A stretch of 21,885 bases of DNA from a virus. The stretch lies in UHGV virus genome UHGV-0198133; one strand, 5' to 3'. How positions within the stretch are numbered: position 1 is the stretch's first letter; each line of letters starts with the position of its first letter. This document shows positions 135 to 16,181 of the stretch, piece by piece. The notes under the pieces were generated by a model, which made no database searches, was not told the DNA's origin, and saw only the letters and a list, made by a program, of their open reading frames with translations. The position numbers and the translations under genes are program-made.

Positions 135-2666
135 ATGGCAGCAGTAAAAATCTCAGGCGTGCTGAAAGACGGTGCAGGAAAACCGGTACAGAACTGCACC
201 ATTCAGCTCAAAGCAAAACGTAACAGCACCACGGTTGTGGTGAACACGGTGGCCTCTGAAAATCCGGATGAAGCCGGGCGTTACAGTATGGACGTTGAGT
301 ACGGTCAGTACAGCGTTATTCTGTTGGTGGAGGGATTCCCGCCGTCACATGCCGGGACCATCACCGTGTATGAAGATTCTCAACCCGGTACGCTGAATGA
401 TTTTCTCGGTGCCATGACGGAGGATGATGCCCGTCCGGAGGCACTGCGCCGTTTTGAGCTGATGGTGGAAGAGGTGGCGCGTAACGCGTCCGCAGTGGCA
501 CAGAACACGGCAGCCGCGAAGAAGTCAGCCGGCGATGCCAGCACATCAGCCCGTGAGGCGGCAACCCATGCGACTGATGCTGCAGACTCAGCACGCGCAG
601 CCAGCACGTCAGCCGGACAGGCCGTGTCGTCGGCTCAGTCAGCGTCTTCCAGCGCAGGAACGGCATCAGCAAAAGCCTCTGAGGCATCGAAAAGTGCTGC
701 TGCTGCAGAGTCCTCAAAAAGCGCGGCGGCCACCAGTGCCGGTGCAGCGAAAACGTCAGAAACGAATGCGGCAGCCAGCGTTACCGCCGCTGAAAAATCG
801 GCAGAAAGCGCTGCATCGTCCGCTTCAACAGCCACAACGAAGGCTGGCGAAGTCACTGAACAGGCCACTGCAGCTGCGAGGTCTGCTTCCGCAGCGAAGA
901 CATCTGAGACGAATGCGAAAGCGTCGGAAACCCGTGCCGAATCCTCAAAAACGGCAGCCGCATCGTCCGCCAGTTCGGCGGCGTCATCGGCATCATCTGC
1001 GTCTGCTTCAAAAGATGAGGCGACTAAACAGGCGTCAGCAGCGAAAGGCAGCGCCACGACGGCATCCACGAAGGCGACAGAGGCAGCTGGCAGTGCGACG
1101 GCAGCAGCTCAGAGCAAAAGTGCGGCAGAATCCGCAGCAACGCGCGCCGGGACGGCAGCAAAACGGGCAGAGGATATTGCATCCGCTGTGGCGCTTGAGG
1201 ATGCGAGTACGACGAAAAAGGGGATAGTACAACTCAGTAGTGATACCAACAGCACGTCTGAAACACTGGCCGCGACATCGAAAGCGGTTAAGGCGGTAAT
1301 GGATGAAACAAACAAGAAAGCCCCATTAAACAGCCCGACACTGACCGGAACACCAACGACGCCAACTGCGCGACAGGGAACTAATAATACCCAAATCGCA
1401 AGCACGGCTTTCGTTATGGCTGCGATTGCCGCCCTTGTAGATTCGTCACCTGACGCACTGAATACGCTGAACGAGTTAGCGGCGGCGCTGGGAAACGACC
1501 CGAATTTTGCGACCACCATGACTAACGCGCTTGCGGGTAAGCAACCGAAAGATGCCACCCTGACGGCGCTGGCCGGGCTTGCTACTGCGGCAGACAAGTT
1601 TCCGTATTTTACGGGGAATGATGTCGCCAGCCTGGCAACCCTGACAAAAGTCGGGCGGGATATTCTTGCGAAATCGACCGTTGCCGCTGTTATCGAATAC
1701 CTCGGTTTACAGGAAACGGTAAATCAGGCTTCTGGTGCGTTGCAGAAAAACCAGAACGGCGCGGATATTCCAGGAAAAGATACCTTCACCAAAAATATTG
1801 GTGCCTGCCGCGCATATAGCGCATGGCTGAATATTGGTGGCGATAGTCAGGCCTGGACAACCGCACAATTCATTTCGTGGCTGGAGAGTCAGGGAGCATT
1901 TAACCATCCTTACTGGATGTGCAAAGGCTCATGGGCTTATGCAAATAATAAGGTCATTACAGATACAGGTTGCGGAAATATTTGTCTTGCAGGTGCTGTG
2001 GTGGAAGTTACTGGCACTCGCGGCGCAATGACCATACGCGTTACCACGCCGAGTACGTCCAGCGGCGGCGGAATCACTAACGCTCAATTCACTTATATTA
2101 ATCATGGTGATGCTTACGCTCCTGGCTGGCGACGAGACTACAACACGAAAAACCAGCAGCCTGCATTTGCTTTAGGGCAAACAGGAAGCACTGTCGGAAA
2201 TGATAAAGCTGTTGGCTGGAACTGGAATAGCGGGGTCTATAACGCAAATATTGGTGGCGCATCGACATTAATCCTCCACTTCAATATGAATACGGGGAGC
2301 TGCCCTGCTGTACAGTTCCGCGTGAATTACAGGAACGGCGGTATTTTTTATCGTTCAGCGCGTGATGGTTATGGATTTGAGGCTGACTGGTCAGAGTTTT
2401 ACACCACAACCCGCAAACCTTCTGCGGGAGATGTTGGTGCATATACGCGGGCAGAATGTAACTCAAGGTTTATTACAGGTATTCGCCTTGGCGGTCTGTT
2501 ATCTGTTAAGACATGGCATGGTTCCGGCTGGTCTGACAGGTCAGGTTATGTCGTTACGGGTTCAGTTAACGAAAACCGTGATGAATTAATTGATACAATT
2601 CAGGCAAGGCCAATTCAGTATTGCATTAATGGGGTGTGGTATAACGCGGGGAGTATTGAACGATGA
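135..2666 (+). CDS. stf: Side tail fibre protein (lambda Stf-like N-terminus, P2 gpH-like distal region)
   Basis: 843-aa ORF. N-terminus [27 protein letters not shown] matches my recollection of lambda/Rac Stf. A long Ala/Ser/Thr-rich low-complexity segment follows, then motifs shared with P2 gpH ([62 protein letters not shown]). Confidence 0.85.
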
Positions 2667-3205
2667 TGCACTTAAAAAACATTACTGCTGGCAACCCTAA
2701 AACAAAAGAGCAATACCAGCTAACGAAACAATTTAACATCAAATGGCTTTATACAGAGGATGGGAAAAACTGGTATGAGGAACAAAAGAACTTTCAGCCT
2801 GATACGTTGAAAATGGTCTATGACCACAACGGCGTTATTATTTGTATTGAAAAGGATGTTTCAGCAATTAATCCGGAAGGCGCAAGCGTCGTTGAATTAC
2901 CTGATATTACAGCAAATCGCCGGGCTGATATTTCGGGTAAATGGATGTTTAAGGATGGCGTGGTAATTAACCGGGAATGCACTTATGAAGAACTGGTGCA
3001 GCAGGCAAAAAATAAAAAGAGCTTATTAATGCGACAGGCCGATGATTGCATGGCACCCCTTCGGGATGCTGTGGATTTGGATATGGCGACAGAGGGGGAA
3101 AAGGAACAGTTACTGACCTGGAAGAAATATCGGGTGTTACTAAACCGTGTTGATACATCGACCGCGCCGGATATCGAATGGCCGGAAGAACCAGACACAA
3201 TGTAA
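2663..3205 (+). CDS. tfa: Tail fibre assembly chaperone (P2 gpG / Tfa family)
   Basis: 180-aa ORF whose ATG overlaps the stf stop (ATGA). N-terminus [25 protein letters not shown] and internal [14 protein letters not shown] resemble P2 gpG/Tfa as recalled. Confidence 0.85.
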
Positions 3206-3361
3206 GCGAAAAAGAAAAACCGCAGACACGACGTATGCAGGACGTGCTGCGGTTGGCTGGCGAACTTTCGATAGTGCGAGTATTGAATGATTTCCAGCCG
3301 TTATTGATTTTATATAACTGTAGTGGAGTTATTCAACACACAGGCAAAACAGAATAATCTG

Positions 3362-3399
3362 AGAAAAAAGCGTGCTTCGTCAGTCCGGGGCGAAGCACG
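3362..3399 (-). terminator. Hairpin with T-run on the minus strand (putative intrinsic terminator)
   Basis: Inverted repeat cgtgcttcg (3371-3379) / cgaagcacg (3391-3399) with an 11-nt loop. The A-run at 3363-3369 gives a U-run after the stem on the minus strand. Confidence 0.4.
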
Positions 3400-3566
3400 T
3401 CTGAATGACACCTGAAAATTTCCCGTCCGTTAAGTGTCCATCCCGAGAGAAGTGGGGAACCATAACACCCTGTCGGGACGCAGAAAGAAACAACACAACT
3501 TGCAGGGATATTTCTCGATACTACGTCAATGGGGGGTGTTAAATTATTACACTTAGTTACAAATAG

Positions 3567-3600
3567 AAAAGCCTCTGACTTCATAAGCAGAGGCTTTTCT
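3567..3600 (+). terminator. Hairpin with flanking A-run and T-run (putative bidirectional terminator)
   Basis: Inverted repeat aaaagcctctg / cagaggctttt around a 10-nt loop, followed by ttttct. Confidence 0.4.
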
Positions 3601-3718
3601 GAAATGCACGTGCATTTTGCGTGTATATTTTGGTCTTTTTCTGGTCCGCTCACTGTCTGGTCAGTGTCCATAAGTGACTGTTTTTATAGTCTCTGTCTGG
3701 TTGTGGTCCTGTCAAAAG

Positions 3719-3763
3719 TGGTGGAGCTGGCGGGAGTTGAACCCGCGTCCGAAATTCCTACAT
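3719..3763 (-). other. Prophage attachment core: duplicated 3' end of ssrA (tmRNA)
   Basis: Reverse complement reads ATGTAGGAATTTCGGACGCGGGTTCAACTCCCGCCAGCTCCACCA, a tRNA-like T-arm (GGGTTCAACTCCC) plus acceptor 3' end ending CCACCA, matching the E. coli ssrA 3' end from memory. No tmRNA body follows on the 5' side, so this is the partial duplicate copy. Confidence 0.6.
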
Positions 3764-3848
3764 ACCATTTTTACTATAGCAAAAACAGTAGTTTGCATTT
3801 AAAAACAGTGCGTTATTGTTATGTAGTGTTTGTCCATTTTACTAATTT

Positions 3849-4895
3849 TTAATGCGCTGCCGCCAAAGTGCCGCCAACTTCGTTAGGAACTAGAGTTAGT
3901 GCTTCAGAAACGTAATCAGCCCATTCCTGCGAAGAAAATGCTTGTAAAGAATTGGCGTGTTTTCTGAATTTAAACCTCAACTTACCAACATATAAGTAAT
4001 TATAAATGTTGTCGTAATGTGGTATATCTTCATTATATATCAAACGAATTAGTTTTCTTGATAGAAGATATGATATTTCTAAAATATCGGCGAATACTTG
4101 TTCTTCAAGTGTAAATGTTTTTAATTGATACCCATCATATTTTATCAAACAGTATACATGAGATATGGGGGATGTACATATCAGGTCTAATAACGAGGCT
4201 GTATTATATGACAAAGTGTTAAGTCGAATCATGTAACTTAATGGATTATATTCATCTATAGAGTGTTGAACCGACAGAGTATTATTAATTGTGTTTAAGT
4301 ACTCCTTTAATTGCACTAAAAAATCAGGGTTTGCGGTGAAGTTAGATGTGGTCTCTATATTTGATTTGTTGTATATTTTTGTATATAAAAGATATGGGTT
4401 GGAAATTTTAATTTCATCTGCTGTAAACAAAGTGATATTTGGTTCGCCATTGAATTTAATGAGGTTTCCATCTGAGTCTCTCGCGCTTTGAAGATTGTAG
4501 GCGAATATTTCCTTTGTTTTCTCAATAAAGTTTTTCTCATGTGCTAAATATCTATCGACTGCATTTTTCGTTTCAGCGGTGTTGATCTGAGCTTCGGTTT
4601 GTATAGTGCGATGTATATTGTTGACGATCGAAGCCAAAGGAACTGCACTAGCTAGCAATAGTAGAGGGAATTTGCTTATTTCGTAAAATCTTGAATAGCC
4701 ATGTGCGGAGAGTACTGGTTCTTTTCCCCACCATGTGAAAAAACCAAAATAGATAAAGGAAAATAAAGGTGTTAAAACTGAAATCCAAAATAATTTCTGA
4801 CGAAATAAATTTCTTTTATCAAGCATGTACCATTTTTTACTATTGTAATAAATACTAATAAAACGATTGCTGCAATATAAATCACTGTATAACAA
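3849..4895 (-). CDS. Hypothetical AT-rich predicted membrane protein between att and int (cargo/moron)
   Basis: 348-aa ORF, visibly much more AT-rich than the flanking phage genes. Hydrophobic N-terminal segments (LFWISVLTPLFSFIYFGFFTWW and FPLLLLASAVPLASIV) are followed by an Asn/Tyr/Ile-rich soluble region. Start is uncertain: TTG at 4895 or in-frame ATG at 4826. Confidence 0.55.
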   Translation of the reverse strand: MLYSDLYCSNRFISIYYNSKKWYMLDKRNLFRQKLFWISVLTPLFSFIYFGFFTWWGKEPVLSAHGYSRFYEISKFPLLLLASAVPLASIVNNIHRTIQTEAQINTAETKNAVDRYLAHEKNFIEKTKEIFAYNLQSARDSDGNLIKFNGEPNITLFTADEIKISNPYLLYTKIYNKSNIETTSNFTANPDFLVQLKEYLNTINNTLSVQHSIDEYNPLSYMIRLNTLSYNTASLLDLICTSPISHVYCLIKYDGYQLKTFTLEEQVFADILEISYLLSRKLIRLIYNEDIPHYDNIYNYLYVGKLRFKFRKHANSLQAFSSQEWADYVSEALTLVPNEVGGTLAAAH

Positions 4896-4914
4896 GTATC
4901 ACTTAACATGATTT

Positions 4915-5931
4915 TCACTCAATATAATTTAAAGGATTCTTAGTTACTGCATCTTCTAAGTGTTCTGGTGAAAAATGAGAATAGATCATCGTCATTTTTA
5001 TATCGGCATGGCCCAGAATATCGCGCAGCACCAGTATGTTTCCGCCATTCATCATAAAATGGCTGGCGAATGTATGACGTAGCACGTGAGTGCATTGGCC
5101 CTCTGGCAGCTCGATGCCAGCTCGCTTTACTGCTCGTTCAAAGGCTTTTCTGCACGGGGTGAATAGCTTCCCTCTGTTCTTGGGGAGTTCGTCATACAGA
5201 TCTTGAGATATCGGCACGGTGCGGTTTTTCTTACCCTTCGTCTTGGTATAAGTGATGCGGTATTTAGATAACTGATGGCCCTGCAGGTTTTCGGCTTCAC
5301 TCCAGCGTGCGCCGGTGGCCAGGCATATTTTTGCAATCAAAAGCAGACTGGGGTTTTGAGAATCAGCGCAGGCATCTAGCAGACGTTTAATTTCTTCCGA
5401 GGTCAGGAACGCCAGTTCCCCCTCAGCGATTTTAAATGTTGGCAGCCCGGCGAGAGGATTTGGTGCTGACCAGTGGCCTAGTTTTTTCAATGTGCCAAAA
5501 ACCGATGATAGGTTACGTTGCTCAAGATTCACCGTGCGTGGTTTTACTGGCGACATTAGTGTGCCGTCTTCGTTACGAACGTCACCTTTTAACCGTGCTT
5601 CGCGGTATTTCGTAAAGTCACCGGCTGTCAGTTCTGAGGCGATGGGGTCGCCTAGACCATTACAGATAATTCTAAGTTTCGCCATGAGGCGCTTGGGGTC
5701 TGCGAGTGTCTGACCATACAGGGAATACCAAAGCTCAATTAATTCTGATAGGCGTCGCCGATCATCCTTTTCACCCAACCACGGTTTTTTATTCACTTCT
5801 TCCATTGTGAAGCTTTCAAAAGCAATGGCTTCGCCTTTCGTAGCAAATTGCTTACGCACGCGCTTACCATTGCGTCCATTGGGATAGCACTCACACAACC
5901 ATTTTCCGTTCGGCTGTTTTCTGATGGTCAT
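4915..5931 (-). CDS. int: Tyrosine site-specific integrase (P2/186 Int family)
   Basis: 338-aa ORF adjacent to att. C-terminal catalytic region contains HVLRHTFASHFMMNGGNILVLRDILGHADIKMTMIYSHF (R, H-x-x-R and Y of the tyrosine recombinase signature). Confidence 0.9.
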   Translation of the reverse strand: MTIRKQPNGKWLCECYPNGRNGKRVRKQFATKGEAIAFESFTMEEVNKKPWLGEKDDRRRLSELIELWYSLYGQTLADPKRLMAKLRIICNGLGDPIASELTAGDFTKYREARLKGDVRNEDGTLMSPVKPRTVNLEQRNLSSVFGTLKKLGHWSAPNPLAGLPTFKIAEGELAFLTSEEIKRLLDACADSQNPSLLLIAKICLATGARWSEAENLQGHQLSKYRITYTKTKGKKNRTVPISQDLYDELPKNRGKLFTPCRKAFERAVKRAGIELPEGQCTHVLRHTFASHFMMNGGNILVLRDILGHADIKMTMIYSHFSPEHLEDAVTKNPLNYIE

Positions 5932-5932
5932 A

Positions 5933-6565
5933 TCAAAGGCTCTTAATGATTTTCAGTGCGCGGCCTACTACCTCAATGTCATCTAGGCCACACTCAAACG
6001 ATGAATCATCCTGATGTACTACTAATTTGTTTCCCGGGAGTCGAGTCAATTTAACAATGCTTTTTATCCCGTCGATATCGACTAACCACATACCATTTAC
6101 TGGTGGTGTTTGGTTGCGATCTATTAAATAAGAATCACCAGAAGTAGTCACCAGCAGTAGGTTGCTTGAGTCTGAGGGGAGTATGCTGCTATCAATGATT
6201 GCTTTTCCAGCATCGATCAATAAACCACCGTTGAGAGTCGCCTTGTCAATTTCAGGAGATACTAGTTCAGAAAGAGGTATAACCTTGCTGGAGTTCACGG
6301 AATTGATATTTTTTTGGGGTTCAATGTTTGAACCTGGCTCCCCCTGTCCGGTGGTTAGCCACAGTAAAGAAACTCCTGTTTCCAAGGCGCACTGAATCAC
6401 CCACTCTGCAGGAAAACTATCTCTTAAGTATCTGTTTGCCATGGTGCTTTTTGATGCGCCTAAGTGATCGCAAAGTTGCTGTCTGGACTTGAAATCATAG
6501 GCTGCCATTAGTCTATGGATAGCCTCTCTTCCCCCTGTATTCTCTCCAACCTTTACATGTATCAT
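5933..6565 (-). CDS. cI: 186-type CI immunity repressor
   Basis: 210-aa ORF divergent from the lytic operon, with its stop overlapping the int start (cI-int operon as in 186). N-terminal region has an HTH-like segment (LGASKSTMANRYL). Family assignment rests on position and size. Confidence 0.7.
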   Translation of the reverse strand: MIHVKVGENTGGREAIHRLMAAYDFKSRQQLCDHLGASKSTMANRYLRDSFPAEWVIQCALETGVSLLWLTTGQGEPGSNIEPQKNINSVNSSKVIPLSELVSPEIDKATLNGGLLIDAGKAIIDSSILPSDSSNLLLVTTSGDSYLIDRNQTPPVNGMWLVDIDGIKSIVKLTRLPGNKLVVHQDDSSFECGLDDIEVVGRALKIIKSL

Positions 6566-6577
6566 TTTTTAATCCTG

Positions 6578-6625
6578 TTGACGTATCAAATATTGGGTCG
6601 TAGTATCTCGATGTATCAAATATTG
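6578..6625 (+). promoter_or_regulatory. Lysis-lysogeny switch region: candidate rightward promoter with repeated operator-like elements
   Basis: TTGACG (6578-6583), 17-bp spacer, TAGTAT (6601-6606). Direct repeat gtatcaaatattg at 6583-6595 and again at 6613-6625, 30 bp apart, overlapping the promoter elements between divergent cI and apl. Confidence 0.4.
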
Positions 6626-6684
6626 AATCAAGTAAAACGAGATAAAACGACGTAAACCAAACCTTAATCGGGAGATACTGCACT

Positions 6685-6927
6685 ATGAGCACTGATATTT
6701 CAATTCGTGTACCAAAAGAGATGGCTACGCCTGCAGAGTTCGCGGAATGGGAAGGTATCTCCCGCGGCTCCGTGTATCAAAAAATTCACCATGGTCAGCT
6801 TGCTAAATACATGGTCAAGAAAGAAAAAAACAAAGGCCGCGTAAGCCTGCGTTATTTAATGTACAAAACCGATCAGGTCCGTGAATCCCTCGGTCATTCC
6901 AACTTCCGCGTCATTGTTGGTAAGTAA
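6685..6927 (+). CDS. Apl/Cox-like excisionase and switch regulator
   Basis: 80-aa ORF, first gene of the rightward operon opposite cI, with an SD-like gggaga upstream. Assignment is by size and position only. Confidence 0.5.
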   Translation: MSTDISIRVPKEMATPAEFAEWEGISRGSVYQKIHHGQLAKYMVKKEKNKGRVSLRYLMYKTDQVRESLGHSNFRVIVGK

Positions 6928-6959
6928 GTTCAATTATGAGAACTTTCTAAGGGGGTAGC

Positions 6960-7469
6960 ATGTTTGATTATAAGATTTCCAAACACCCGCATTTTGATGA
7001 AGCCTGTAGAGCTTTTGCACTTCGTCACAATATGGCGAAGCTGGCAGAACGTGCAGGAATGAATGTCCAGACTCTGCGAAACAAACTCAACCCAGATCAA
7101 CCGCATCAGCTCAATGCGCCAGAAATCTGGCTGCTTACCGATCTGACTGAAGATTCAACGCTGATAGATGGTTTTCTGGCACAGATTCACTGCCTGCCAT
7201 GTGTACCGATTAATGAGGTAGCAAAAGAGAAACTGCCGCATTACGTCATGAGTGCAACCGCAGAGATCGGGCGTGTTGCTGCAGGTGCGGTATCTGGCGA
7301 TGTAAAAACCAGTGCCGGTCGTCGTGATGCCATCAGCAGCATTAATTCTGTAACACGACTGATGGCGCTGGCGGCTGTTTCATTGCAGGCCCGTTTACAG
7401 GCTAACCCTGCGATGGCGAGTGCAGTTGATACTGTGACTGGCCTCGGTGCTTCATTCGGTTTGCTGTGA
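6960..7469 (+). CDS. cII: CII-like lysogeny-establishment regulator
   Basis: 169-aa ORF immediately after apl-like, with aagggggtagcATG providing an SD. Size and position match 186 CII. Confidence 0.55.
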   Translation: MFDYKISKHPHFDEACRAFALRHNMAKLAERAGMNVQTLRNKLNPDQPHQLNAPEIWLLTDLTEDSTLIDGFLAQIHCLPCVPINEVAKEKLPHYVMSATAEIGRVAAGAVSGDVKTSAGRRDAISSINSVTRLMALAAVSLQARLQANPAMASAVDTVTGLGASFGLL

Positions 7470-7476
7470 GGTGCTT

Positions 7477-7773
7477 ATGCTGACGAAAGAACCATCATTT
7501 GCGTCGCTGCTGGTAAAACAAAGTCCGGCAATGCACTACGGTCACGGCTGGATCACGGGTGAGGATGGAAAACGCTGGCATCCATGTCATTCACAAGATG
7601 AATTGCTGTCTGAATTGACCACGAGGAAACGGAGAAAGTCCAAATGTATGCGGCAGAAAGTGAAGTGGTTTATCAGTTTCGTTACAGAGGGGAGAGTTAT
7701 TCAGTACCTGAAGATGATTTGCTCTGTTGCTATCCGTCATTGTCGGGCGATGGCAGTTACTTTTTCACGTTAA
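7477..7773 (+). CDS. Hypothetical early protein (start taken at first ATG; 3' part overlaps the next ORF)
   Basis: ORF in the fil/dhr position of 186-like phages. First ~55 aa look protein-like (MLTKEPSFASLLVKQSPAMHYGHGWITGEDGKRWHPCHSQDELLSELTTRKRRKS); the tail looks like an out-of-frame read. Confidence 0.35.
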   Translation: MLTKEPSFASLLVKQSPAMHYGHGWITGEDGKRWHPCHSQDELLSELTTRKRRKSKCMRQKVKWFISFVTEGRVIQYLKMICSVAIRHCRAMAVTFSR

Positions 7774-7868
7774 AGGATGGGACGTTTTTACGGGGAGAGC
7801 AGGTTAAAGAGACGATACGAAAAAATGTATCTCCTCTTGAGCGTTACCGTAAGAACAAAGAACGATAG
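7644..7868 (+). CDS. Hypothetical early protein
   Basis: 74-aa ORF with GGAG about 9 nt upstream of the ATG. Overlaps the 3' end of the previous ORF in another frame. Confidence 0.4.
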   Translation: MYAAESEVVYQFRYRGESYSVPEDDLLCCYPSLSGDGSYFFTLKDGTFLRGEQVKETIRKNVSPLERYRKNKER

Positions 7869-7890
7869 CTGCGTTTGGGGGATATGAAGT

Positions 7891-8232
7891 ATGGCAATTA
7901 ATGGCGCTGCAGCAACTGTTCCATTAAGCCCCGGTGAACGCCTGAATGGACTTAATCACATTGCGGAGTTAAGGGCGAAAGTTTTTGGCATGAATATTGA
8001 GTCAGAGCTTGAGCGGTTTATTAAAGATATGCGTGATCCACGGGATATTAATAGCGAACAAAATAAACGGGCACTGGCTGCCATATTCTTTATGGCAAAA
8101 ATTCCAGCTGAACGTCATAGCATCAGCATTAATGAGCTGACCACTGACGAAAAGCGGGAGTTGATTAAAGCAATGAATCATTTTCGTGCAGTGGTGAGCT
8201 TATTTCCCAGACGGCTAACCATGCCGAATTAA
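7891..8232 (+). CDS. Hypothetical early protein
   Basis: 113-aa ORF on the same strand within the early operon; no recognisable motif. Confidence 0.5.
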   Translation: MAINGAAATVPLSPGERLNGLNHIAELRAKVFGMNIESELERFIKDMRDPRDINSEQNKRALAAIFFMAKIPAERHSISINELTTDEKRELIKAMNHFRAVVSLFPRRLTMPN

Positions 8233-8299
8233 CCAACTAATGAAATTCATGGCGTAAACCCGCCGGGCATCCCTTTATCTAAATTCAGGAGAATTGACA

Positions 8300-8533
8300 A
8301 TGCGTAATATTGAAACCCGCGCCACTAAAACCGGACCGGATGATGCAGGGCTTAATCTTTTACTGACAGAGGCTCGTCTGGAAGAACGCCGGGCAAGGGC
8401 TGAAGCAATGGCTGCCCGCCTTGATAGTCTTGCGTGTCATATCACATCCCGCCAGCTAAACCACGTCGAAGCGGCAGAACTGCTGCGTGTGACTGCTGAA
8501 GCAATCCAGAACGAAGCGCAGGAGATCCACTAA
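8300..8533 (+). CDS. Hypothetical early protein (start moved to ATG at 8300)
   Basis: caggag at 8286-8291 lies 8 nt upstream of ATG 8300; the ORF track began at TTG 8294. Stop overlaps the next start (TAATG). Confidence 0.5.
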   Translation: MRNIETRATKTGPDDAGLNLLLTEARLEERRARAEAMAARLDSLACHITSRQLNHVEAAELLRVTAEAIQNEAQEIH

Positions 8534-8760
8534 TGGCTGATGCAATGGATCTCGTACAGCAGCGCGTTGAAGAAGAACGCCAGCGCCATATCCGTGCTGC
8601 CCGTGCCAAAACACCGGGCGTGTCCCGCGTGCTTTGCATTGAGTGTGAAGCGCCAATTCCGCCAGTACGACGCCGCGCCATTCCGGGTGTGCAGCTTTGC
8701 ATTACCTGCCAGGAAATCGCAGAACTGAAAGGCAAACATTACAACGGAGGTGCTGTATGA
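8533..8760 (+). CDS. TraR/DksA-family C4 zinc-finger protein
   Basis: 75-aa ORF with CIECEAPIPP...QLCITCQ, i.e. CxxC-x17-CxxC at the C-terminus, as in phage and plasmid TraR/DksA-like proteins. Confidence 0.7.
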   Translation: MADAMDLVQQRVEEERQRHIRAARAKTPGVSRVLCIECEAPIPPVRRRAIPGVQLCITCQEIAELKGKHYNGGAV

Positions 8761-9614
8761 GCACCATCCTGAAATGGGCGGGTAATAAAACTGCCATTAT
8801 GTCCGAACTGAAAAAATACCTTCCTGCTGGCCCGCGACTGGTTGAACCTTTCGCGGGTTCCTGTGCAGTGATGATGGAGACGGATTACCCCAGCTATCTG
8901 GTTGCGGATATTAATCCTGATTTAATCAACCTCTATAAAAAGGTTGCTGCTGATTGTGAATCGTTTATATCTCGCGCCAGAGTTTTATTTGAGATCGCAA
9001 ACAGGGAGGTGGCTTATTACAACATAAGGCAGGAGTTTAATTACTCAACTGAAATTACTGATTTCATGAAAGCGGTATATTTCCTGTATCTCAATCGTCA
9101 CGGTTACCGTGGTTTATGTCGCTATAACAAGAGCGGGCATTTCAACATTCCCTACGGTAATTATAAAAATCCGTATTTCCCTGAAAAAGAAATTCGCGCA
9201 TTTGCAGAAAAAGCCCAGCGAGCAACGTTTATCTGCGCCAGCTTTGATGAAACGCTGGCGATGTTGAAGGCAGGGGATGTGGTGTATTGCGATCCGCCGT
9301 ATGACGGTACGTTTTCCGGCTATCACACTGATGGTTTCACTGAAGATGACCAGTATCACCTGGCATCCGTTCTTGAACATCGGTCATCAGAAGGACATCC
9401 GGTCATTGTTTCTAACAGTGACACATCCCTGATCCGTTCGCTGTATCGCAATTTTACTCACCACTATATCAAGGTAAAACGCAGCATCGGTGTGGCAGCT
9501 GGCGAGGGTAAATCAGCAACAGAAATCATTGCTGTTTCCGGGCCGCGCTGCTGGGTGGGATTTGATTATTCGCGTGGCCTGGATAGTTCTGCCGTGTACG
9601 GAGTACGTGCATGA
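8758..9614 (+). CDS. dam: DNA adenine (N6) methyltransferase, Dam-like
   Basis: ILKWAGNK near the N-terminus, FAGS (motif I) and DPPY (motif IV), the order characteristic of Dam-type MTases. True start is ATG 8758 with GGAGG upstream; the longer track ORF from 8697 overlaps the TraR-like gene. Confidence 0.8.
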
Positions 9615-12025
9615 GCCATGCCGATATGAACAACTGCTGCGGCTTTAACGAGGCTGCCGCAGCGTTCTCATGGAACAGCCCGAAAAAGGCCATTAACCCT
9701 TATCTGGACCCGGCGGAAGTTGCGCCGGTTTCTGCGCTTTCAAACCTGATCGCTCTGTACGCTGCCGATAACGAGCAGGAACACCTGCGCCGCGAGGCAC
9801 TGAGTGATCAGGTCTGGGAGCGTTATTTCTTTAATGAATCCCGTGATCCTGTCCAGCGCGAAATGGAGCAGGATAAGCTCATTAGTCGGGCAAAGCTGGC
9901 GCATGAGCAGCAGCGTTTTAATCCAGATATGGTCATTCTGGCGGACGTCAATGCCCAGCCTTCCCATATCAGCAAGCCGCTGATGCAACGTATTGAATAC
10001 TTCAGCAGCTTGGGCAGGCCAAAGGCTTATTCCCGCTATTTGCGTGAGACGATTAAGCCATGTTTGGAGCGACTGGAGCATGTACGCGACAGCCAGCTAT
10101 CTGCATCTTTTCGTTTTATGGCAAGCCATGTAGGGCTGGACGACCTGCTGATTCTGCCTGAAATGAGTCAGGATCAGGTGAAACGCCTGTCTACTCTTGT
10201 CGCTGCGCATATGAGCATGTGTCTTGATGCCGCTTGTGGTGATTTGTACGCCACCGATGATGTTAAGCCAGAAGAAATCCGCAAGACATGGGAAAAGGTG
10301 GCAGCAGAAACCCTGCGACTGGATGTTATCCCGCCTGCGTTTGAGCAACTTCGTCGGAAAAGAAACCGCCGTAAACCCGTGCCCTATGAACTCATTCCGG
10401 GTTCGCTGGCGCGTATGTTGTGCGCCGATTGGTGGTACCGGAAATTATGGAAGATGCGTTGCGAATGGCGGGAAGAGCAGTTGCGTGCTGTTTGCCTGGT
10501 CAGCAAAAAAGCATCTCCCTATGTCAGCTATGAAGCCGTGATGCATAAACGTGAGCAGCGCCGTAAGTCGCTGGAGTTTTTCCGTTCTCATGAACTGGTG
10601 AACGAAGACGGCGACACGCTGGACATGGAGGATGTGGTAAACGCCAGCAGCAGCAACCCGGCGCATCGCCGCAATGAGATGATGGCCTGTGTTAAAGGTC
10701 TGGAGCTTATCGCAGAAATGCGCAGTGACTGTGCCGTTTTCTACACTATCACCTGTCCGTCGCGTTTCCATTCCACGCTCAATAACGGCAGACCAAACCC
10801 GACCTGGACAAACGCGACGGTAAGACAAAGCAGCGATTATCTGGTCGGCATGTTTGCTGCATTTCGTAAGGCTATGCACAAAGCCGGGTTGCGCTGGTAT
10901 GGCGTGCGGGTGGCTGAACCGCATCATGACGGCACAGTTCACTGGCACCTGTTGTGTTTCATGCGCAAAAAAGACCGCCGCGCCATTACTGCATTGTTGC
11001 GTAAGTTTGCCATCCGTGAAGACCGCGAGGAGCTGGGCAATAACACGGGGCTACGCTTTAAGTCTGAGCTGATAAACCCGCGCAAAGGTACGCCAACAAG
11101 CTACATCGCGAAATACATCAGTAAGAACATTGACGGGCGTGGTCTGGCTGGCGAGATCAGCAAGGAAACGGGTAAATCCCTGCGTGATAACGCTGAATAC
11201 GTTAATGCCTGGGCGTCTCTGCATCGTGTTCAGCAATTCCGCTTCTTTGGCATTCCGGGGCGTCAGGCTTACCGTGAACTGCGATTGCTGGCTGGTCAGG
11301 CGGCAAGGCAACAGGGGGACAAAAAAGCAGGTGCGCCGGTACTGGATAACCCGCGCCTTGATGCAATCCTGGCTGCTGCTGATGCTGGTTGTTTTGCCAC
11401 CTACATCATGAAGCAGGGCGGCGTACTGGTTCCCCGCAAATATCACCTCATCAGAACTGCTTATGAAATCAACGAAGAGCCGACCGCCTATGGCGATCAC
11501 GGTATTCGTATTTATGGCATCTGGTCACCCATTGCAGAGGGCAAGATCTGCACTCATGCGGTGAAGTGGAAAATGGTTCGTAAGGCCGTTGACGTTCAGG
11601 AGGCGGCAGCCGACCAGGGCGCTTGCGCCCCTTGGACTCGTGGCAATAACTGTCCCCTTGCTGAAAATTTGAACCAACAGGAGAAAGATAAATCAGCTGA
11701 TGGGGACCCCAGAACGGACATTACCCGCATGGATGACAAGGTGTTGCACGATTACCTGCACAGTATGAACAAAAAGGAGCGCCGGGAATTGGCTGCAAGG
11801 TTACGTCTGGTGAAACCGAAACGGCGTAGAGACTACAAACAGCGAATTACAGACCATCAACGACAGCAGCTCGTCTATGAACTGAAATCCAGAGGATTTG
11901 ATGGCAGCGAGAAAGAGGTCGATTTACTCCTTCGCGGCGGCAGTATTCCGTCAGGAGCAGGCCTGCGTATCTTCTATCGGAACCAGCGTTTGCAGGAAGA
12001 TGATAAGTGGCGGAACCTGTATTAA
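9611..12025 (+). CDS. A: Rolling-circle replication initiator (P2 gpA / 186 RepA family)
   Basis: 804-aa ORF coupled to dam (ATGA overlap). Contains an HUH-like motif ([13 protein letters not shown]) and a twin-tyrosine motif YIAKYISKN resembling phiX174 gpA YVAKYVNK. Confidence 0.85.
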
Positions 12026-12095
12026 TTACGCTGGTTAACAATTCGTGCTCTTAATAATATCAGGCATATCAGGCTGATAAGCGTAAAAAAAACGT

Positions 12096-12138
12096 TTTAC
12101 ATCAGTAAGATTATTATATACTGTAAATATAAACAGTG
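12096..12138 (+). promoter_or_regulatory. Candidate SOS-regulated promoter with LexA box
   Basis: taCTGTaaatataaACAGtg at 12119-12138 fits the LexA box CTGT-N8-ACAG with an AT-rich spacer. Upstream TTTACA (12096-12101) and a 17-nt spacer place the -10 over the box. Confidence 0.5.
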
Positions 12139-12179
12139 GTTATACATACAGTATTGCGTGTGGTGTCATAGGAGGAAAG

Positions 12180-12368
12180 ATGCAGGACTATTTTTTGGAG
12201 TCTTTGAAGCTCCAGCGCATTGATTTTTTTCTTAAGCTTGTAGCGGCTAGTGAGTGCGATGATGAAGAGAAGCGGCTTGCTATCCAGTGGGTTTCGGAGC
12301 TGACCGATGAGTTAATGGCGAAAATCCGTACTCATGAGTACAACCGTTCAATGGATCTCCCCGGTTAG
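12180..12368 (+). CDS. Small SOS-controlled protein, Tum-like antirepressor candidate
   Basis: 62-aa ORF with AGGAGG immediately upstream, downstream of the LexA box, in the position after repA where 186 carries LexA-repressed tum. No sequence-level confirmation. Confidence 0.45.
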   Translation: MQDYFLESLKLQRIDFFLKLVAASECDDEEKRLAIQWVSELTDELMAKIRTHEYNRSMDLPG

Positions 12369-12952
12369 GCTTAGAAACGTTGCTGGCGTTAGGACTTGAT
12401 TCTGACGCTAGCAAGGTTGATCAACGAGCCATGCGAGGCGTTAGTCATGGGAAAAAAATAGTAACTTCCAGATTTTGCTTCGTGCCAGGTATTGAGTAGT
12501 TTTATCGCCAGAGGGGCTGTTAGCGCTCAAACTACTAATGGAGCCACACCTTAGATGAGTGATTTGGCTTAAGCTATGATTATATAGTTTCGCTGTACGG
12601 CGGCCTTGCTTTTTATTGAAGCGACCAGACTGGAACAACGGCGAAAGGAGACTAACGATACGCACCAGTTTTTTGAAAAGGTACAGTTATCTAGATTGGT
12701 TGCCAATTTTCGTTGAAACCTGACATACCATTAGGTCATTGCTTTAGAAAAATTAATACTTGATGTGAGAATTGCTTCAAAACATCTAGAATTAAAGTTT
12801 CTTTACTAGTATGCTTCATCACTTGGTCGTTGGGTTGAGTGCAAAAGCTAAGGCTGATGCCCAGTACGCTATCCGCATTATTGCCAGAGAACCGATTCGA
12901 AACCGGAATCTGGCAGAGCATGGGCGCAAGTGCTGGCTTCCCAACGGCCTCG

Positions 12953-13921
12953 TTATTTATAATATGCTGACTTCAAAACCACTCGTCTTTCAACCTGCTG
13001 TGATAGCATTACCGCGTTAGTCCAATCTTTTGGATACCTTATTTCTTCTATAACACGAATATAAGCACATACTTTATTTTTTCCCTCTCCTTTGGCATAA
13101 GTAACCTCTAGATTATTAAATTTCAATAAGTGCTCTCTTCTTTGGTAAGTAAAACAGCCGTAATCACGGACATCAGAAGAAGTAATAGCATGAGTTGAAG
13201 GAAACCGAACTAGTAAATTTCTCAAGTAGGGAATAATGTCCAAACTCGTTGCTTTGTTTTCTTCTCTGCGACTCTTTCTGAACATATGTCTCCAACCCAG
13301 CCGTGTAAGCTCGATTTTCCCAAGCACCGGAGATGTGATTTCTTTCTGTTCAGAATAACGTTTTTTAACAAACGCTCGCCGATTATTAAGTAGTGAGTTT
13401 CTTCTTCTTACATGGATTCCTTTTGCTCCAGTTTCACCTGCACGTACCATGGACATACAGCGAGCCAGGTCAAACCGTGTGGCCGGAGTGATTAAGTGAT
13501 ATTCTCCATAAGTTTGGTTTTTAAGGGTAGTGTTTGGATGTATATAGGCCCAAAATGCTTTACGATTAGTTCTGTCAACCCAAACGACACATATATGGTG
13601 AGTTGTCCTTTTGGCTGCTTTTTTTGCGGCCGAATTTAATACAAAACCTTTCTCTAATAAATGACCATAAGTTGCCCCTGATTTAACTTGCGATAATATA
13701 AGCATTCTTTCTTTTGATGCCCATGGATGTTCGAAGGATAATATTAAATCTATTTTTGAATTGTCGTCTTCCCTGGAACCCCAGTGCCCCTCTCCTCTAC
13801 AAGCAAGAATGAATTGACTCATTGCATAAGATTCGGCGTCACTGCCGTTAACTGAGTTAAACTGTCTTGTTTCTAGCACAGTTGGTATTGGTCGTGATGC
13901 AAGTAAACTGAAAGATCCCAC
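12953..13921 (-). CDS. Hypothetical AT-rich orphan protein in the repA-cos cargo slot (possible nuclease-like N-terminal domain)
   Basis: 322-aa ORF with GTG start at 13921 preceded by GGAGA (alternative ATG at 13822). N-terminal region has a pattern compatible with a PD-(D/E)xK-like core (E...KIDLILSF...MLILSQVKSG). Flanked by ~580 bp and ~600 bp of non-coding DNA. Confidence 0.5.
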   Translation of the reverse strand: MGSFSLLASRPIPTVLETRQFNSVNGSDAESYAMSQFILACRGEGHWGSREDDNSKIDLILSFEHPWASKERMLILSQVKSGATYGHLLEKGFVLNSAAKKAAKRTTHHICVVWVDRTNRKAFWAYIHPNTTLKNQTYGEYHLITPATRFDLARCMSMVRAGETGAKGIHVRRRNSLLNNRRAFVKKRYSEQKEITSPVLGKIELTRLGWRHMFRKSRREENKATSLDIIPYLRNLLVRFPSTHAITSSDVRDYGCFTYQRREHLLKFNNLEVTYAKGEGKNKVCAYIRVIEEIRYPKDWTNAVMLSQQVERRVVLKSAYYK

Positions 13922-14529: not shown

Positions 14530-15444
14530 ATGCCATACCAATTGGTAGAGCTTAGCCCCGTAGCTAACGATCTTGAACAGTTAGGAACCAAAGAGAAGTT
14601 TTGGTTCTATTTCTCCGATGACACTGTAAATTTGCAGTTGTTTAAGTACTCTAGGCCAGGTACTGGCGAGCATTGGTCTGAAAAGTGTGCTGCTGAGTTA
14701 TGTCATTTGCTTAACATTCCACATGCTAGCTATGATTTGGCGCGATACAATGGTCGATTCGGTGTGGTGACTCAGAATATCATTCCATCTGGTTTCCGGA
14801 TGGTAATGGGAAATGAAGTGCTTCACAGTTCGACATTCGATTATCCTGGGCCTTTACAAGCCGGGGAAAAGCCGGTAAGGGTCAGAGAACACACTGTCAC
14901 AAGGGTATTGGGTTGTTTGGATAGGGAATCTATCAAGCCTCCTCCGAGTGTATATGATCTAACCGGGCTAAATGCAGCAGATGTATTTTGTGGATATTTG
15001 ATGCTCGATGCACTTGTGAGTAATCAAGATCGCCATCATGAAAATTGGGCGATCATGCTTAACAATGAAACTGGTGAGCAGTTTTTGTGTCCAACATACG
15101 ATCATGCCGCTAGTTTAGGAAGGGAGATGTTAGATGATGAGCGTAACGAACGGCTTAATACTAAAGATAAAAATCGACAAATCCCATGTTTTGTAAGAAA
15201 AGCTCGCTCTGAGCTATTCAAAGCAAAAACTGATAAAAAGCCCTTGCTGACCGTTGAAGCATTTCAACATGCAGTTGAAGGGAGAGTTGCCGCTCGCGAC
15301 CATTGGTTAGGTAAGTTGAGCGTTTTAACAGAAGATTCCATTACAGATGTGTTTAACCAAGTGCCTTCATCGTGTATATCCGACAGTGCACGTAGATTTG
15401 CAACGTTAATGGTAATGGAAAATCGCAGAAGGTTACTAGAATGA
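14530..15444 (+). CDS. HipA-like Ser/Thr protein kinase, compact core only
   Basis: 304-aa ORF. Gly-rich loop LGTKEKFWF (compare HipA GAQEKT), catalytic-loop-like LVSNQDRHHENWA (compare HipA D-x-H-x-K-N) and Mg-binding-like PTYDHAAS 24 residues later (HipA D309 to D332 is 23). No HipA N-terminal subdomain. Confidence 0.6.
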   Translation: MPYQLVELSPVANDLEQLGTKEKFWFYFSDDTVNLQLFKYSRPGTGEHWSEKCAAELCHLLNIPHASYDLARYNGRFGVVTQNIIPSGFRMVMGNEVLHSSTFDYPGPLQAGEKPVRVREHTVTRVLGCLDRESIKPPPSVYDLTGLNAADVFCGYLMLDALVSNQDRHHENWAIMLNNETGEQFLCPTYDHAASLGREMLDDERNERLNTKDKNRQIPCFVRKARSELFKAKTDKKPLLTVEAFQHAVEGRVAARDHWLGKLSVLTEDSITDVFNQVPSSCISDSARRFATLMVMENRRRLLE

Positions 15445-16181
15445 CTAATACAAACTCCGTTTACGTCGCATGGCAGGCACCAGATACCAGAGACTGGCAT
15501 GTTGTTGGTAACTTGCAAGAGCGCAAATCGGGGTATGTTTTCAGGTATACCAAAGGTGCTCTTAAATCTACTAAATTTACAAAGTTTAGCGGCATGAGTG
15601 ATGTTCGTGAAACTTATGTTTCGGAAGAATTGTTTCCTCTTTTTAAAAATCGCCTTTTATCACCGAGACGTCCAGAGTATCCGAGTTTCATTAAATGGCT
15701 TGGATTTGAAGAAGATAAGGTAAATCCTATCGATATTCTTGCTCGCTCGGGAGGCTTACGAAGCACTGATCAGCTGCAGATTTTCAAAAAAATTGATGTT
15801 GATTCTGATGGTAACTTTGAGCATTTTTTCTTCTTACATGGACTTGGTTACTTAAATAGCTTAGCTAATGCTCGTGTATCTGAATTGAAACCGGGGCAAA
15901 TTTTGCGTCTTTGCTTGGATCTTCAAAATGAATACGATGGGGATGCTGTTGTCGTTCGTGCAGATAAACCAGCTGAAATCGTTGGTTACTGCCCTAGGTA
16001 TTTAAGTAATGATATCAAGAAGATGTTATTGGATGATCCAAAATCAATCACTTTAACGGTCGAAAAGATTAGCGATGATGCTCCTCATAACTATCGGTTA
16101 TTATGTAAATTATCAGGAGTACTAAGCCAAGCCTGTCAATCGACGCTGATTCCTCAGGATGAGTTTGAACCTATTGAGTAA
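15441..16181 (+). CDS. HIRAN-like domain protein with unknown N-terminal domain, coupled to the kinase
   Basis: 246-aa ORF whose ATG overlaps the kinase stop (ATGA). C-terminal half (FFLHGLGYL...LQNEYDGDAVVVRADKPAEIVGYCPRYLSNDIKKML) follows the HIRAN pattern seen in HLTF (VVGLRYY...NPYDKNAIKV...VGHLKKELA). Confidence 0.5.
   Translation: MTNTNSVYVAWQAPDTRDWHVVGNLQERKSGYVFRYTKGALKSTKFTKFSGMSDVRETYVSEELFPLFKNRLLSPRRPEYPSFIKWLGFEEDKVNPIDILARSGGLRSTDQLQIFKKIDVDSDGNFEHFFFLHGLGYLNSLANARVSELKPGQILRLCLDLQNEYDGDAVVVRADKPAEIVGYCPRYLSNDIKKMLLDDPKSITLTVEKISDDAPHNYRLLCKLSGVLSQACQSTLIPQDEFEPIE

What the first reader, a model, noticed from the sequence alone, without database searches (positions are those of the whole stretch)
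3849..4895. AT-rich membrane protein inserted between att and int
186/P2-type phages normally have int directly beside attP. Here a 348-aa strongly AT-rich ORF with predicted N-terminal transmembrane helices and an Asn/Tyr/Ile-rich body is wedged between them, on the integrase strand. This is a typical moron position, and membrane-anchored morons are often superinfection-exclusion or abortive-infection proteins. The C-terminal codons run into GC-rich sequence beside the att core, so the reading frame there may not be native.
Basis: partly seen in the sequence, partly recalled or inferred. Interest (0 to 1): 0.55.

Follow-up and report, generated by a model that had tools for sequence, protein, structure and literature searches.

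The report
Frameshifted membrane cargo gene beside attP
An AT-rich gene for a three-helix inner-membrane protein sits between the attachment site and the integrase of a 186-like prophage; it belongs to a large uncharacterised family that rides in the variable "cargo" slots of P2-like phages and is most likely an anti-phage immunity protein, and the copy in this window is broken by a one-base deletion.

Summary
The native gene is 353 aa, starting at ATG 4909 and ending at stop 3849-3851 on the minus strand. In this window an A7-to-A6 deletion (4833-4838) frameshifts it. The reported TTG start at 4895 is an artefact, and 45-aa and 325-aa pieces remain.

The protein has three hydrophobic helices and a probably cytoplasmic C-terminal domain. 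It belongs to a family of at least 1025 clusters at 50% identity. The family has no Pfam, NCBIfam or PADLOC match, its only PHROG match is of unknown function, and no similar fold was found in the PDB or BFVD.

Its membrane-proximal module is conserved (58% mean pairwise identity), while the C-terminal domain is highly variable (21%). Members lie directly after int in 186-like prophages, or in the gpA-gpQ hotspot of P2-like phages.

Related E. coli prophages hold other AT-rich cargos in this slot, and a 2026 paper already lists it as a minor P2 defence hotspot.

The last nine codons are backbone DNA: two probable Int arm-type repeats, which give unrelated cargos the same GGxLAAEH-type tail.

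Most likely it is a lysogen-expressed, single-protein anti-phage system. This rests on location and architecture only; no phenotype was tested.

The parts
3849..4909 (-). Cargo gene: native 353-aa membrane protein of the phrog_17460 family, disrupted in this window by a 1-bp deletion.
   Evidence: Annotated as a 353-aa CDS in five E. coli genomes at 99.5-99.9% identity. Matches phrog_17460 at E 2.4e-44. 103 homologous clusters.
4833..4838 (-). Frameshift site: an A6 run on the coding strand where all intact relatives have A7.
   Evidence: Alignment A1 and blastn against F719. The same allele is present in two independent metagenome assemblies.
4772..4909 (-). Truncated 45-aa product from the native ATG. 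It contains transmembrane helix 1, then out-of-frame residues and a stop.
   Evidence: The ORF list shows 4772-4918 in this frame. Called as a 45-aa gene in L031.
3849..4826 (-). Remaining 325-aa reading frame from native Met29. It covers transmembrane helices 2 and 3, the conserved helix next to the membrane, and the variable C-terminal domain.
   Evidence: Gene callers annotate it as a 325-aa protein.
3852..3878 (-). Last nine codons (VGGTLAAAH), encoded by phage backbone DNA rather than by the cassette.
   Evidence: This block is conserved and non-coding in SEN8 and Cartapus. The same tail ends the unrelated cargos in L016, L017 and L018.
3858..3876 (+). Two TGCCGCCA repeats in 11-bp phase (3858-3865 and 3869-3876). 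These are probably Int arm-type binding sites of the P' arm.
   Evidence: The same phased pairs flank the core on both arms of the intact attP in SEN8 and Cartapus. That Int binds them is inferred.
3719..3775 (-). att site: a 3' fragment of ssrA (tmRNA). The crossover region is about 3719-3763.
   Evidence: Rfam tmRNA partial match. The two sets of homology meet here.
4915..5931 (-). Integrase. Its last ~90 nt (4915-5004) are AT-shifted, so the right-hand cassette boundary lies inside the 3' end of int.
   Evidence: Pfam hits. GC of the last 90 nt is 0.29 against 0.49 for the rest of int. It is 0.29-0.42 in all cargo-bearing relatives and 0.51 in empty-slot SEN8.
5933..6565 (-). CI repressor, the first gene of the inferred cI-int-cargo leftward operon.
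   Evidence: Pfam Phage_CI_repr and Phage_CI_C. No terminator-like site was found between cI and the cargo stop, and promoter-like sites lie at 6561-6606.
135..3205 (+). Tail fibre and tail-fibre assembly genes of a different, lambda-like prophage integrated in tandem at ssrA. Not part of the 186-like phage.
   Evidence: H31-H38, where tail-fibre assembly lies next to ssrA. Pfam phage_tail_N, Caudo_TAP and Ail_Lom in L031.

Best explanation
The gene is exchangeable cargo of a 186-like, ssrA-integrating prophage. It sits at the end of the lysogenic cI-int transcription unit, so it should be made in lysogens.

The native product is a 353-aa inner-membrane protein. By the positive-inside rule it has an outside N-terminus, three transmembrane helices and a cytoplasmic C-terminal domain. 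A near-invariant polar helix next to the membrane carries H100, R101, T102, Q104, Q108, K115, N116, D119, H124 and K126. The cytoplasmic domain of about 220 aa is highly variable.

The most likely function is single-protein immunity against other phages. In this model the variable cytoplasmic domain recognises a phage component and holds the protein inactive until then. The conserved membrane module carries out the response. That response would be loss of membrane integrity or energisation (abortive infection), or a block to DNA entry at the inner membrane.

Shown here:
- the gene structure and the frameshift;
- family size;
- the split between a conserved and a variable part;
- residence in two P2 cargo hotspots;
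- the backbone origin of the tail.

Inferred:
- expression from the lysogenic promoter;
- topology;
- the defence role;
- the division into sensor and effector.

In this window the gene is frameshifted after codon 25. At best a 325-aa form with two transmembrane helices could be made, and no ribosome-binding sequence is evident at its ATG.
For: Location:
- The gene lies 5 nt after the int stop, on the same strand, with no terminator-like site between cI and its stop.
- Every family member whose context could be read is cargo of a P2-like phage.
- Nine members sit directly after int of a 186-like prophage: P0100, P0093, P0095, P0034, L025, L026, L028, L029 and L030 (Proteus).
- Two distant members sit between gpA and ogr/gpQ, the main P2 defence hotspot: P0235 and P0214 (PMC13586616).
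- One sits at the tail-gene end of a P2-like element in Pseudomonas chlororaphis.

The slot behaves as a hotspot:
- Related prophages hold this family, a RES-like 400-420-aa family, an HNH protein, a 510-aa protein and a 222-aa protein there, all with GC 0.33-0.36. SEN8 has the slot empty.
- PMC13586616 reports that 3% of P2 defence systems lie between int and att. It also reports that 6 of 8 randomly chosen unknown loci in P4 hotspots protected against phages.

Architecture:
- Hydrophobic segments at 7-25, 40-58 and 78-97, with a basic loop at 25-39.
- AlphaFold2 model with pLDDT 86.8 and pTM 0.69, including a continuous helix 89-135.
- Mean pairwise identity is 58% for residues 27-135 and 21% for 136-345. 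For example, P0011 is 80% against 39%.
- About 28 positions are at least 85% conserved across 219 sequences.
- This C-terminal domain type occurs only fused to the membrane module.
- The gene occurs alone in most loci.
Against: - No phenotype was tested.
- There is no match to any of the 5027 PADLOC models, to Pfam or to NCBIfam.
- Being in a hotspot is a base-rate argument. The same paper's machine-learning methods flag only 15-32% of unknown P2 proteins as defensive.
- Only 2 of 50,697 deposited phage genomes carry a relative.
- The copy in this window is frameshifted, so here it may do nothing.
- Topology rests on hydropathy and charge only.
- The assignment of sensor and effector roles is by analogy.
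Confidence: 0.5

Rival explanations
1. It is a superinfection-exclusion protein in the strict sense. It sits in the inner membrane and blocks genome entry of incoming phages, as P22 SieA, T4 Imm or HK97 gp15 do. It would not sense the phage and would not kill the cell.
For: It is an inner-membrane protein probably made in lysogens from the immunity operon. The strictly conserved membrane module could contact a conserved host or phage entry component.
Against: Known exclusion proteins are small, and their active parts face the periplasm or membrane. Here the large, fast-evolving domain is predicted to be cytoplasmic. No sequence or profile similarity to any named exclusion protein was found.
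Confidence: 0.15
2. It is a membrane-tethered HEPN ribonuclease of the abortive-infection or toxin type, which cleaves RNA at the membrane.
For: Two members give sub-threshold Pfam hits to HEPN_RiboL-PSP: P0093 at E 2e-5 and 25.1 bits, and P0089. Both carry a canonical RNAIAH motif. The cytoplasmic part of the model is mainly a helical bundle.
Confidence: 0.07
3. It is lysogenic-conversion cargo unrelated to phage defence. For example, it could be a membrane protein that changes host envelope physiology, stress tolerance or colonisation. Or it could be a selfish or neutral passenger.
For: No defence-family match was found. Morons with non-defence roles are common in prophages. Most unknown P2 proteins are not flagged as defensive by machine-learning predictors.
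Against: The very fast turnover of the cytoplasmic domain beside a frozen membrane module is hard to explain by a housekeeping role. So is the repeated residence in two slots enriched for defence systems.
Confidence: 0.2
4. In this particular window the feature is a dead gene. The frameshift removes the native start and the remnant is not expressed, so nothing functional is present here.
For: The A7-to-A6 deletion was found in two independent assemblies. No Shine-Dalgarno-like sequence precedes the ATG at 4826 (sequence). The 45-aa upstream frame overlaps that ATG.
Against: The change is very recent. There is no other lesion in the gene, and only one further difference in 7.3 kb from the intact F719 prophage. 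Natural family members annotated without transmembrane helix 1 exist, such as L019, P0096 and P0103. Helix 1 is the least conserved part. A form with two transmembrane helices would keep the same topology.
Confidence: 0.6

Closest known systems
Cargo of the P2-like phage defence hotspots (old/tin locus between gpA and gpQ, Z/fun locus, and the minor int-att hotspot; Rousset et al. 2022 PMC9122126; PMC13586616, 2026)
   Same: It has the same genomic logic. It is an AT-rich, exchangeable gene in a fixed slot of a conserved phage backbone. Family members occupy both the int-att slot and the gpA-gpQ slot. This prophage also carries the PADLOC candidate system PDC-M03 in the main hotspot.
   Different: The protein matches none of the systems described from those hotspots, with no PADLOC hit. 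No phenotype is known for it.
Fused sensor-effector single-protein immunity such as CapRel (conserved toxin domain plus variable phage-sensing C-terminal domain)
   Same: One polypeptide has a strongly conserved N-terminal module and a rapidly diversifying C-terminal domain. It is carried by a prophage and occurs as a single gene.
   Different: There is no sequence or fold relationship. The conserved module here is membrane-embedded, not a nucleotide pyrophosphokinase. The resemblance is architectural only and comes from my own knowledge of CapRel, not from a test here.
Membrane-acting abortive-infection effectors (lambda RexB, retron Ec48 two-transmembrane effector, transmembrane effectors of CBASS and Pycsar)
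   Same: It has a small number of transmembrane helices, is carried by a mobile element, and is plausibly lethal when activated.
   Different: Those effectors depend on a separate sensor or signal-generating partner. This gene is solitary and has its own large cytoplasmic domain. No homology was detected.
Inner-membrane superinfection-exclusion proteins (P22 SieA, T4 Imm, HK97 gp15)
   Same: It is a prophage-encoded inner-membrane protein probably expressed in the lysogen.
   Different: It is much larger, its variable part is cytoplasmic, and there is no homology.
PHROG family phrog_17460
   Same: Direct profile match at E 2.4e-44 over residues 7-291.
   Different: The PHROG has no annotated function, so it adds a name only.

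Membership tests
Cargo of the P2-like int-att hotspot | Lies between the attP arm and the integrase gene of a P2/186-like phage | tested here: met
   att core 3719-3763, arm repeats 3858-3876, gene 3849-4909, int 4915-5931.
Cargo of the P2-like int-att hotspot | Slot content varies among phages with the same backbone (empty, or different genes) | tested here: met
   SEN8 has the slot empty, and Cartapus holds a RES-like protein. The E. coli relatives hold HNH, 510-aa, 222-aa, RES-like or this family.
Cargo of the P2-like int-att hotspot | Composition differs from the phage backbone | tested here: met
   GC 0.328 against 0.476-0.49. All cargos in the slot are 0.33-0.36.
Anti-phage defence system (any) | Reduces phage infection when expressed | not testable with these tools
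   Needs plaque and liquid-infection assays.
Known defence families in PADLOC-DB 2.0 | Profile match to a defence-protein model | tested here: not met
   No family at E <= 1 for the native 353-aa protein.
HEPN (RiboL-PSP type) ribonucleases | R-x4-6-H catalytic motif at the conserved position | tested here: not met
   Absent from the target. Present in only 3-4 of 219 family members: P0089, P0093 and P0071, with P0073 having the R-x5-H form.
HEPN (RiboL-PSP type) ribonucleases | Pfam PF18735 match above the gathering score | tested here: not met
   No hit for the target. The best member scores 25.1 bits against a 28.4 cut-off.
HEPN (RiboL-PSP type) ribonucleases | Four-helix HEPN fold | tested here: inconclusive
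Integral inner-membrane protein | At least one hydrophobic helix long enough to span the bilayer | tested here: met
   Kyte-Doolittle 19-residue windows above 1.6 at 1-31, 40-58 and 78-99. These regions are helical in the AlphaFold2 model with pLDDT 87-93. No dedicated topology predictor was available.
phrog_17460 | Significant profile match | tested here: met
   E 2.4e-44, 153 bits, residues 7-291.
Superinfection-exclusion proteins (SieA, Imm, gp15 types) | Sequence or profile similarity to a named exclusion family | tested here: not met
   No Pfam or NCBIfam hit, and the only PHROG hit is of unknown function.

The most novel reading that the evidence does not exclude
The family is a previously unrecognised single-protein immune system with a new fold. 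The near-invariant membrane-proximal helix (H100, R101, T102, Q104, Q108, K115, N116, D119, H124, K126) together with transmembrane helices 2 and 3 forms a new membrane effector or catalytic module. That module is switched on when the highly variable cytoplasmic domain binds a phage protein. A further point would be that cargo genes in this slot are built to end inside the Int arm-type sites of attP. Int binding and cargo expression could then influence each other.
Probability: 0.3. Interest if true: 0.65.

Novelty: new variant of a known kind. Interest (0 to 1): 0.45.

Why it matters
If the intact allele protects against phages, this would add a large new family of single-gene membrane immunity proteins. 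The family has at least 1025 clusters at 50% identity, spans Enterobacterales to Pseudomonas, and has no known domain or fold. Its built-in contrast between a frozen and a highly variable part is well suited to mapping what is sensed and what executes the response.

The finding also documents how cargo is swapped at the int-att slot. The boundaries lie inside the 3' end of int and at the arm-type repeats, so unrelated proteins inherit the same eight-residue tail from attP DNA.

For genome annotation, the case shows how a homopolymer frameshift in AT-rich cargo produces a plausible but wrong ORF.

Tried and rejected
Searches that found nothing useful:
- Pfam, NCBIfam and PADLOC scans of the native protein gave no hit. 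The weak DUF3810 and DUF6814 hits are transmembrane-composition noise.
- PDB sequence-profile searches with the whole family and with the RNAIAH subgroup gave only coiled-coil or designed-protein noise at E >= 0.07.
- Foldseek against BFVD gave nothing below E = 1.
- AFDB Foldseek was not available.
- A profile search with the C-terminal domain alone returned only members of the same family.
- Ten distant family members had no Pfam domain.
- A literature search for the protein accessions or the PHROG id returned no papers.
- The new systems named in PMC13586616 (Crouga, Bandua, Aernus, Toga, Reve, Hailong) do not resemble this protein by their descriptions.

Ideas considered and rejected:
- HEPN RNase: the motif is missing in the target and in about 98% of the family.
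- PLD-type HxK(x)4D motif at H124-K126: the spacing and the second half of the motif do not fit.
- The LAA in the tail as an ssrA-like degradation signal: it is not C-terminal, and arm-repeat DNA explains it.
- Sequencing error as the cause of the frameshift: unlikely, because two independent short-read assemblies carry it.
- Phase variation: there is no evidence, and all other copies seen are A7.

Short contigs L023 and L024 gave no usable context.

Full report
**1. What is in the sequence**

The window is a metagenome contig. The same sequence is held as ENA ERZ19693220 k119_9141, 21,965 bp. It holds the ends of two prophages joined at ssrA.

- Positions 135-3205 encode a tail fibre and a tail-fibre assembly protein of a lambda-like element. 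The matching contig L031 has Pfam phage_tail_N, Caudo_TAP and Ail_Lom there.
- In other E. coli genomes this block abuts an intact ssrA (H31-H38).
- At 3719-3775 on the minus strand lies only the 3' end of tmRNA (Rfam partial match).
- From there rightwards the window is a 186-like phage. In order it has the target ORF, int (4915-5931), cI (5933-6565), apl/cox, cII, dam, gpA, a cargo region, and then gpQ, gpP, gpO, gpN and gpM.
- The two sets of homology overlap at 3719-3763, which is therefore the att crossover region.

**2. Check of the observation**

The mechanical ORF 3849-4895 (minus strand, 348 aa) exists.

- It is AT-rich. GC is 0.328 and GC3 is 0.30, against 0.476 for int and 0.49 for the rest.
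- It is rich in Leu, Ile, Asn and Tyr.
- The start is wrong. Five of 5,426 complete E. coli genomes carry the same DNA at 99.5-99.9% identity. They annotate a 353-aa protein that begins at the ATG equivalent to window 4909, five bases after the int stop.
- The alignment shows a single difference that matters. The relatives have AAAAAAA where the window has AAAAAA. This is the T-run at 4833-4838 on the plus strand.
- From ATG 4909 the window now gives a 45-aa peptide ending at 4772. The rest of the gene is open from Met29 (ATG 4826, 325 aa).
- The TTG at 4895 is simply the first start-like codon in the upstream read-through of that frame.
- Over 7,288 bp shared with E. coli F719, this deletion and one SNP at 6597 are the only differences.
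- A second, independent SPAdes assembly from other samples has the identical A6 allele and the identical tandem junction.
- Two 325-aa entries exist in the 90% cluster.

The frameshift is therefore most likely a real, recent mutation in one lineage.

**3. The protein**

- The native protein has hydrophobic stretches at 7-25, 40-58 and 78-97, and a basic loop at 25-39 (KKWYMLDKRNLFRQK).
- By the positive-inside rule the N-terminus is outside and the C-terminal domain is in the cytoplasm (inference).
- An AlphaFold2 model built on 61 homologues is confident (pLDDT 86.8, pTM 0.69). It shows helices 2-24 and 39-60, a kinked pair 69-87, and a continuous helix 89-135 running out of the membrane. A mixed helical and small-sheet domain follows to about residue 345.
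- There is no Pfam, NCBIfam or PADLOC match. The only profile hit is phrog_17460, of unknown function.

**4. The family**

- The word-indexed search found 103 clusters at 90% identity, all unnamed. They come from Escherichia, Salmonella, Klebsiella, Enterobacter, Citrobacter, Cronobacter, Serratia, Pectobacterium, Erwinia and Rahnella.
- A full HMMER scan of 1.84 billion representatives found 1025 at E <= 1e-3 and 206 at E <= 1e-30.
- Species-representative genomes add Proteus hauseri and Pseudomonas chlororaphis.
- Conservation is sharply split. Residues 27-135 average 58% pairwise identity. About 28 positions across the protein are at least 85% conserved in 219 sequences. These include L35, Q38, F41, P48, W60, G71, F75, P82, L86, H100, R101, T102, Q104, T105, Q108, K115, N116, D119, H124 and K126.
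- Residues 136-345 average 21%. Only a PYxLY element around residue 172-176 is kept.
- Close relatives already show the split. P0011 is 80% identical in the N-terminal part and 39% in the C-terminal part.
- The target's C-terminal domain type was found only attached to this membrane module.
- Transmembrane helix 1 is the least conserved part. It is absent from some annotated members.

**5. Where the family lives**

Every member whose context could be read is cargo of a P2-like element.

- Nine sit directly after int in 186-like prophages.
- Two distant members sit between gpA and ogr/gpQ. This is the main P2 defence hotspot (PMC13586616).
- The Pseudomonas member sits beyond gpD and a lysis gene, next to umuDC.
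- Only 2 of 50,697 deposited phage genomes have a relative.

**6. The slot**

- SEN8 has int five bases from the conserved attP arm.
- Cartapus has a 401-aa RES-like protein in the slot.
- Among E. coli prophages with an 88-91% identical int, the att-to-int span varies from 1.8 to 2.7 kb.
- Eight were sampled. Three hold this family, one of them as a fragment. Two hold the RES-like family. One each holds an HNH protein, a 510-aa protein and a 222-aa protein.
- All of these cargos have GC 0.33-0.36.
- In Klebsiella aerogenes the membrane family and the RES-like gene are stacked in the same slot.
- The slot is already listed as a minor P2 defence hotspot, holding 3% of P2 systems.

**7. The odd C-terminus**

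- Similarity to the attP of SEN8, Cartapus, RE2010 and Fels-2 runs from 3719 to 3876. It therefore overlaps the last nine codons.
- That stretch contains two TGCCGCCA repeats 11 bp apart, at 3858-3865 and 3869-3876.
- In the intact attP of SEN8 and Cartapus, the same phased pairs flank the core on both sides. This is the layout expected of Int arm-type sites (inference).
- On the coding strand the two repeats are read in two different frames, as GG(T) and (L)AA. This gives ...GGTLAAAH*.
- Family members only 25% identical end in GGTLAAEH.
- Unrelated cargos do the same: L016 ends in GDKLAAEH, L017 in GGNLAAES and L018 in GGTLAAES.
- On the other side, the last ~90 nt of int are AT-shifted in every cargo-bearing phage (GC 0.29-0.42) but not in SEN8 (0.51). 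The Int protein sequence is kept up to ...AVTKNPL.
- The exchangeable cassette thus runs from inside the 3' end of int to the outer edge of the arm repeats, roughly 3877-5004.

**8. Function**

Nothing here tests a phenotype. The best-supported reading is a lysogen-expressed, single-protein anti-phage system.

- It is the last gene of the cI-int unit. No terminator-like site lies between cI and its stop, and promoter-like sites occur only at the cI/apl divergent region.
- It lives only in phage cargo slots that are enriched for defence systems.
- It pairs a frozen membrane module with a fast-evolving cytoplasmic domain, which is the pattern of immune sensor-effector fusions.
- In the cited study, 6 of 8 random unknown loci in P4 hotspots were protective.

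I put the defence reading at about 0.5. I put the specific model, in which the C-terminal domain senses and the membrane module executes, at about 0.3.

The rivals are as follows.
- Strict superinfection exclusion is less likely, because the variable domain is cytoplasmic.
- A HEPN RNase role is not supported. The sub-threshold PF18735 hit and the RNAIAH motif are confined to a handful of members and are absent from the target.
- A non-defence conversion role remains open.

For this window specifically, the copy is probably non-functional or truncated at the N-terminus.

**9. Novelty**

The kind of thing is known: hotspot cargo in P2-like phages. The slot itself is published. The protein family is uncharacterised and resembles no known family or fold. 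The arm-site-encoded shared tail and the cassette boundary inside int were not mentioned in the papers I read.

Noticed in passing
window 135-3763: The left 3.7 kb is the end of a different, lambda-like prophage (lom, tail fibre, tail-fibre assembly). It is integrated in tandem with the 186-like phage at ssrA. No complete E. coli RefSeq genome has this exact junction.
   Followed up: partly
window 14530-16181 (+), and 12953-13921 (-): The main P2 hotspot between gpA and gpQ carries the PADLOC candidate two-gene system PDC-M03 (E 2e-122 and 3e-93). Its two proteins are a HipA-like kinase-fold protein and a HIRAN-domain protein. A 322-aa ORF with no match lies next to it.
   Followed up: partly
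window 6597: This is the only base substitution relative to the E. coli F719 prophage over 7.3 kb (G here, A there). It lies in the cI/apl divergent promoter region, just upstream of a -10-like TAGTAT.
   Followed up: no
window 3858-3876; L004 2934-2952 and 3140-3158; L003 2934-2952 and 3140-3158: TG(C/T)CGCCA pairs in 11-bp phase lie on both sides of the att core. They are probably Int arm-type sites. Several unrelated cargo ORFs stop just beyond them and so share a G[GD]xLAAE[HS] tail.
   Followed up: yes
window 4915-5004; int 3' ends in L003 and L013-L020: The last ~90 nt of int are AT-shifted by synonymous changes in all cargo-bearing phages, but not in empty-slot SEN8. After ...AVTKNPL the Int tail varies in length by 4-11 residues. 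This suggests cassette exchange by recombination inside int.
   Followed up: partly
L003 3165-4370; L014 460-1716; L017 431-1690; L008 6184-7377: A second cargo family of 400-420 aa uses the same slot. Cartapus annotates it as a RES/NAD+-binding protein, and the Pfam RES hit is only weak (E 0.05). Members are 37-62% identical to each other. In Klebsiella aerogenes it sits directly behind the membrane family.
   Followed up: partly
window 3000-3162 (+): Partial Rfam IS009 match (58.8 bits, gathering score 117) inside the tail-fibre assembly gene. It is probably shared prophage sequence rather than an RNA gene.
   Followed up: no
L002 (E. coli NMBU-W12E19) 6130-13282: In this genome the 186-like prophage is a remnant: cII is fused to a gpD fragment, with ogr, IS421 and a reverse-transcriptase gene. 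The cargo gene, int and cI are still intact.
   Followed up: no
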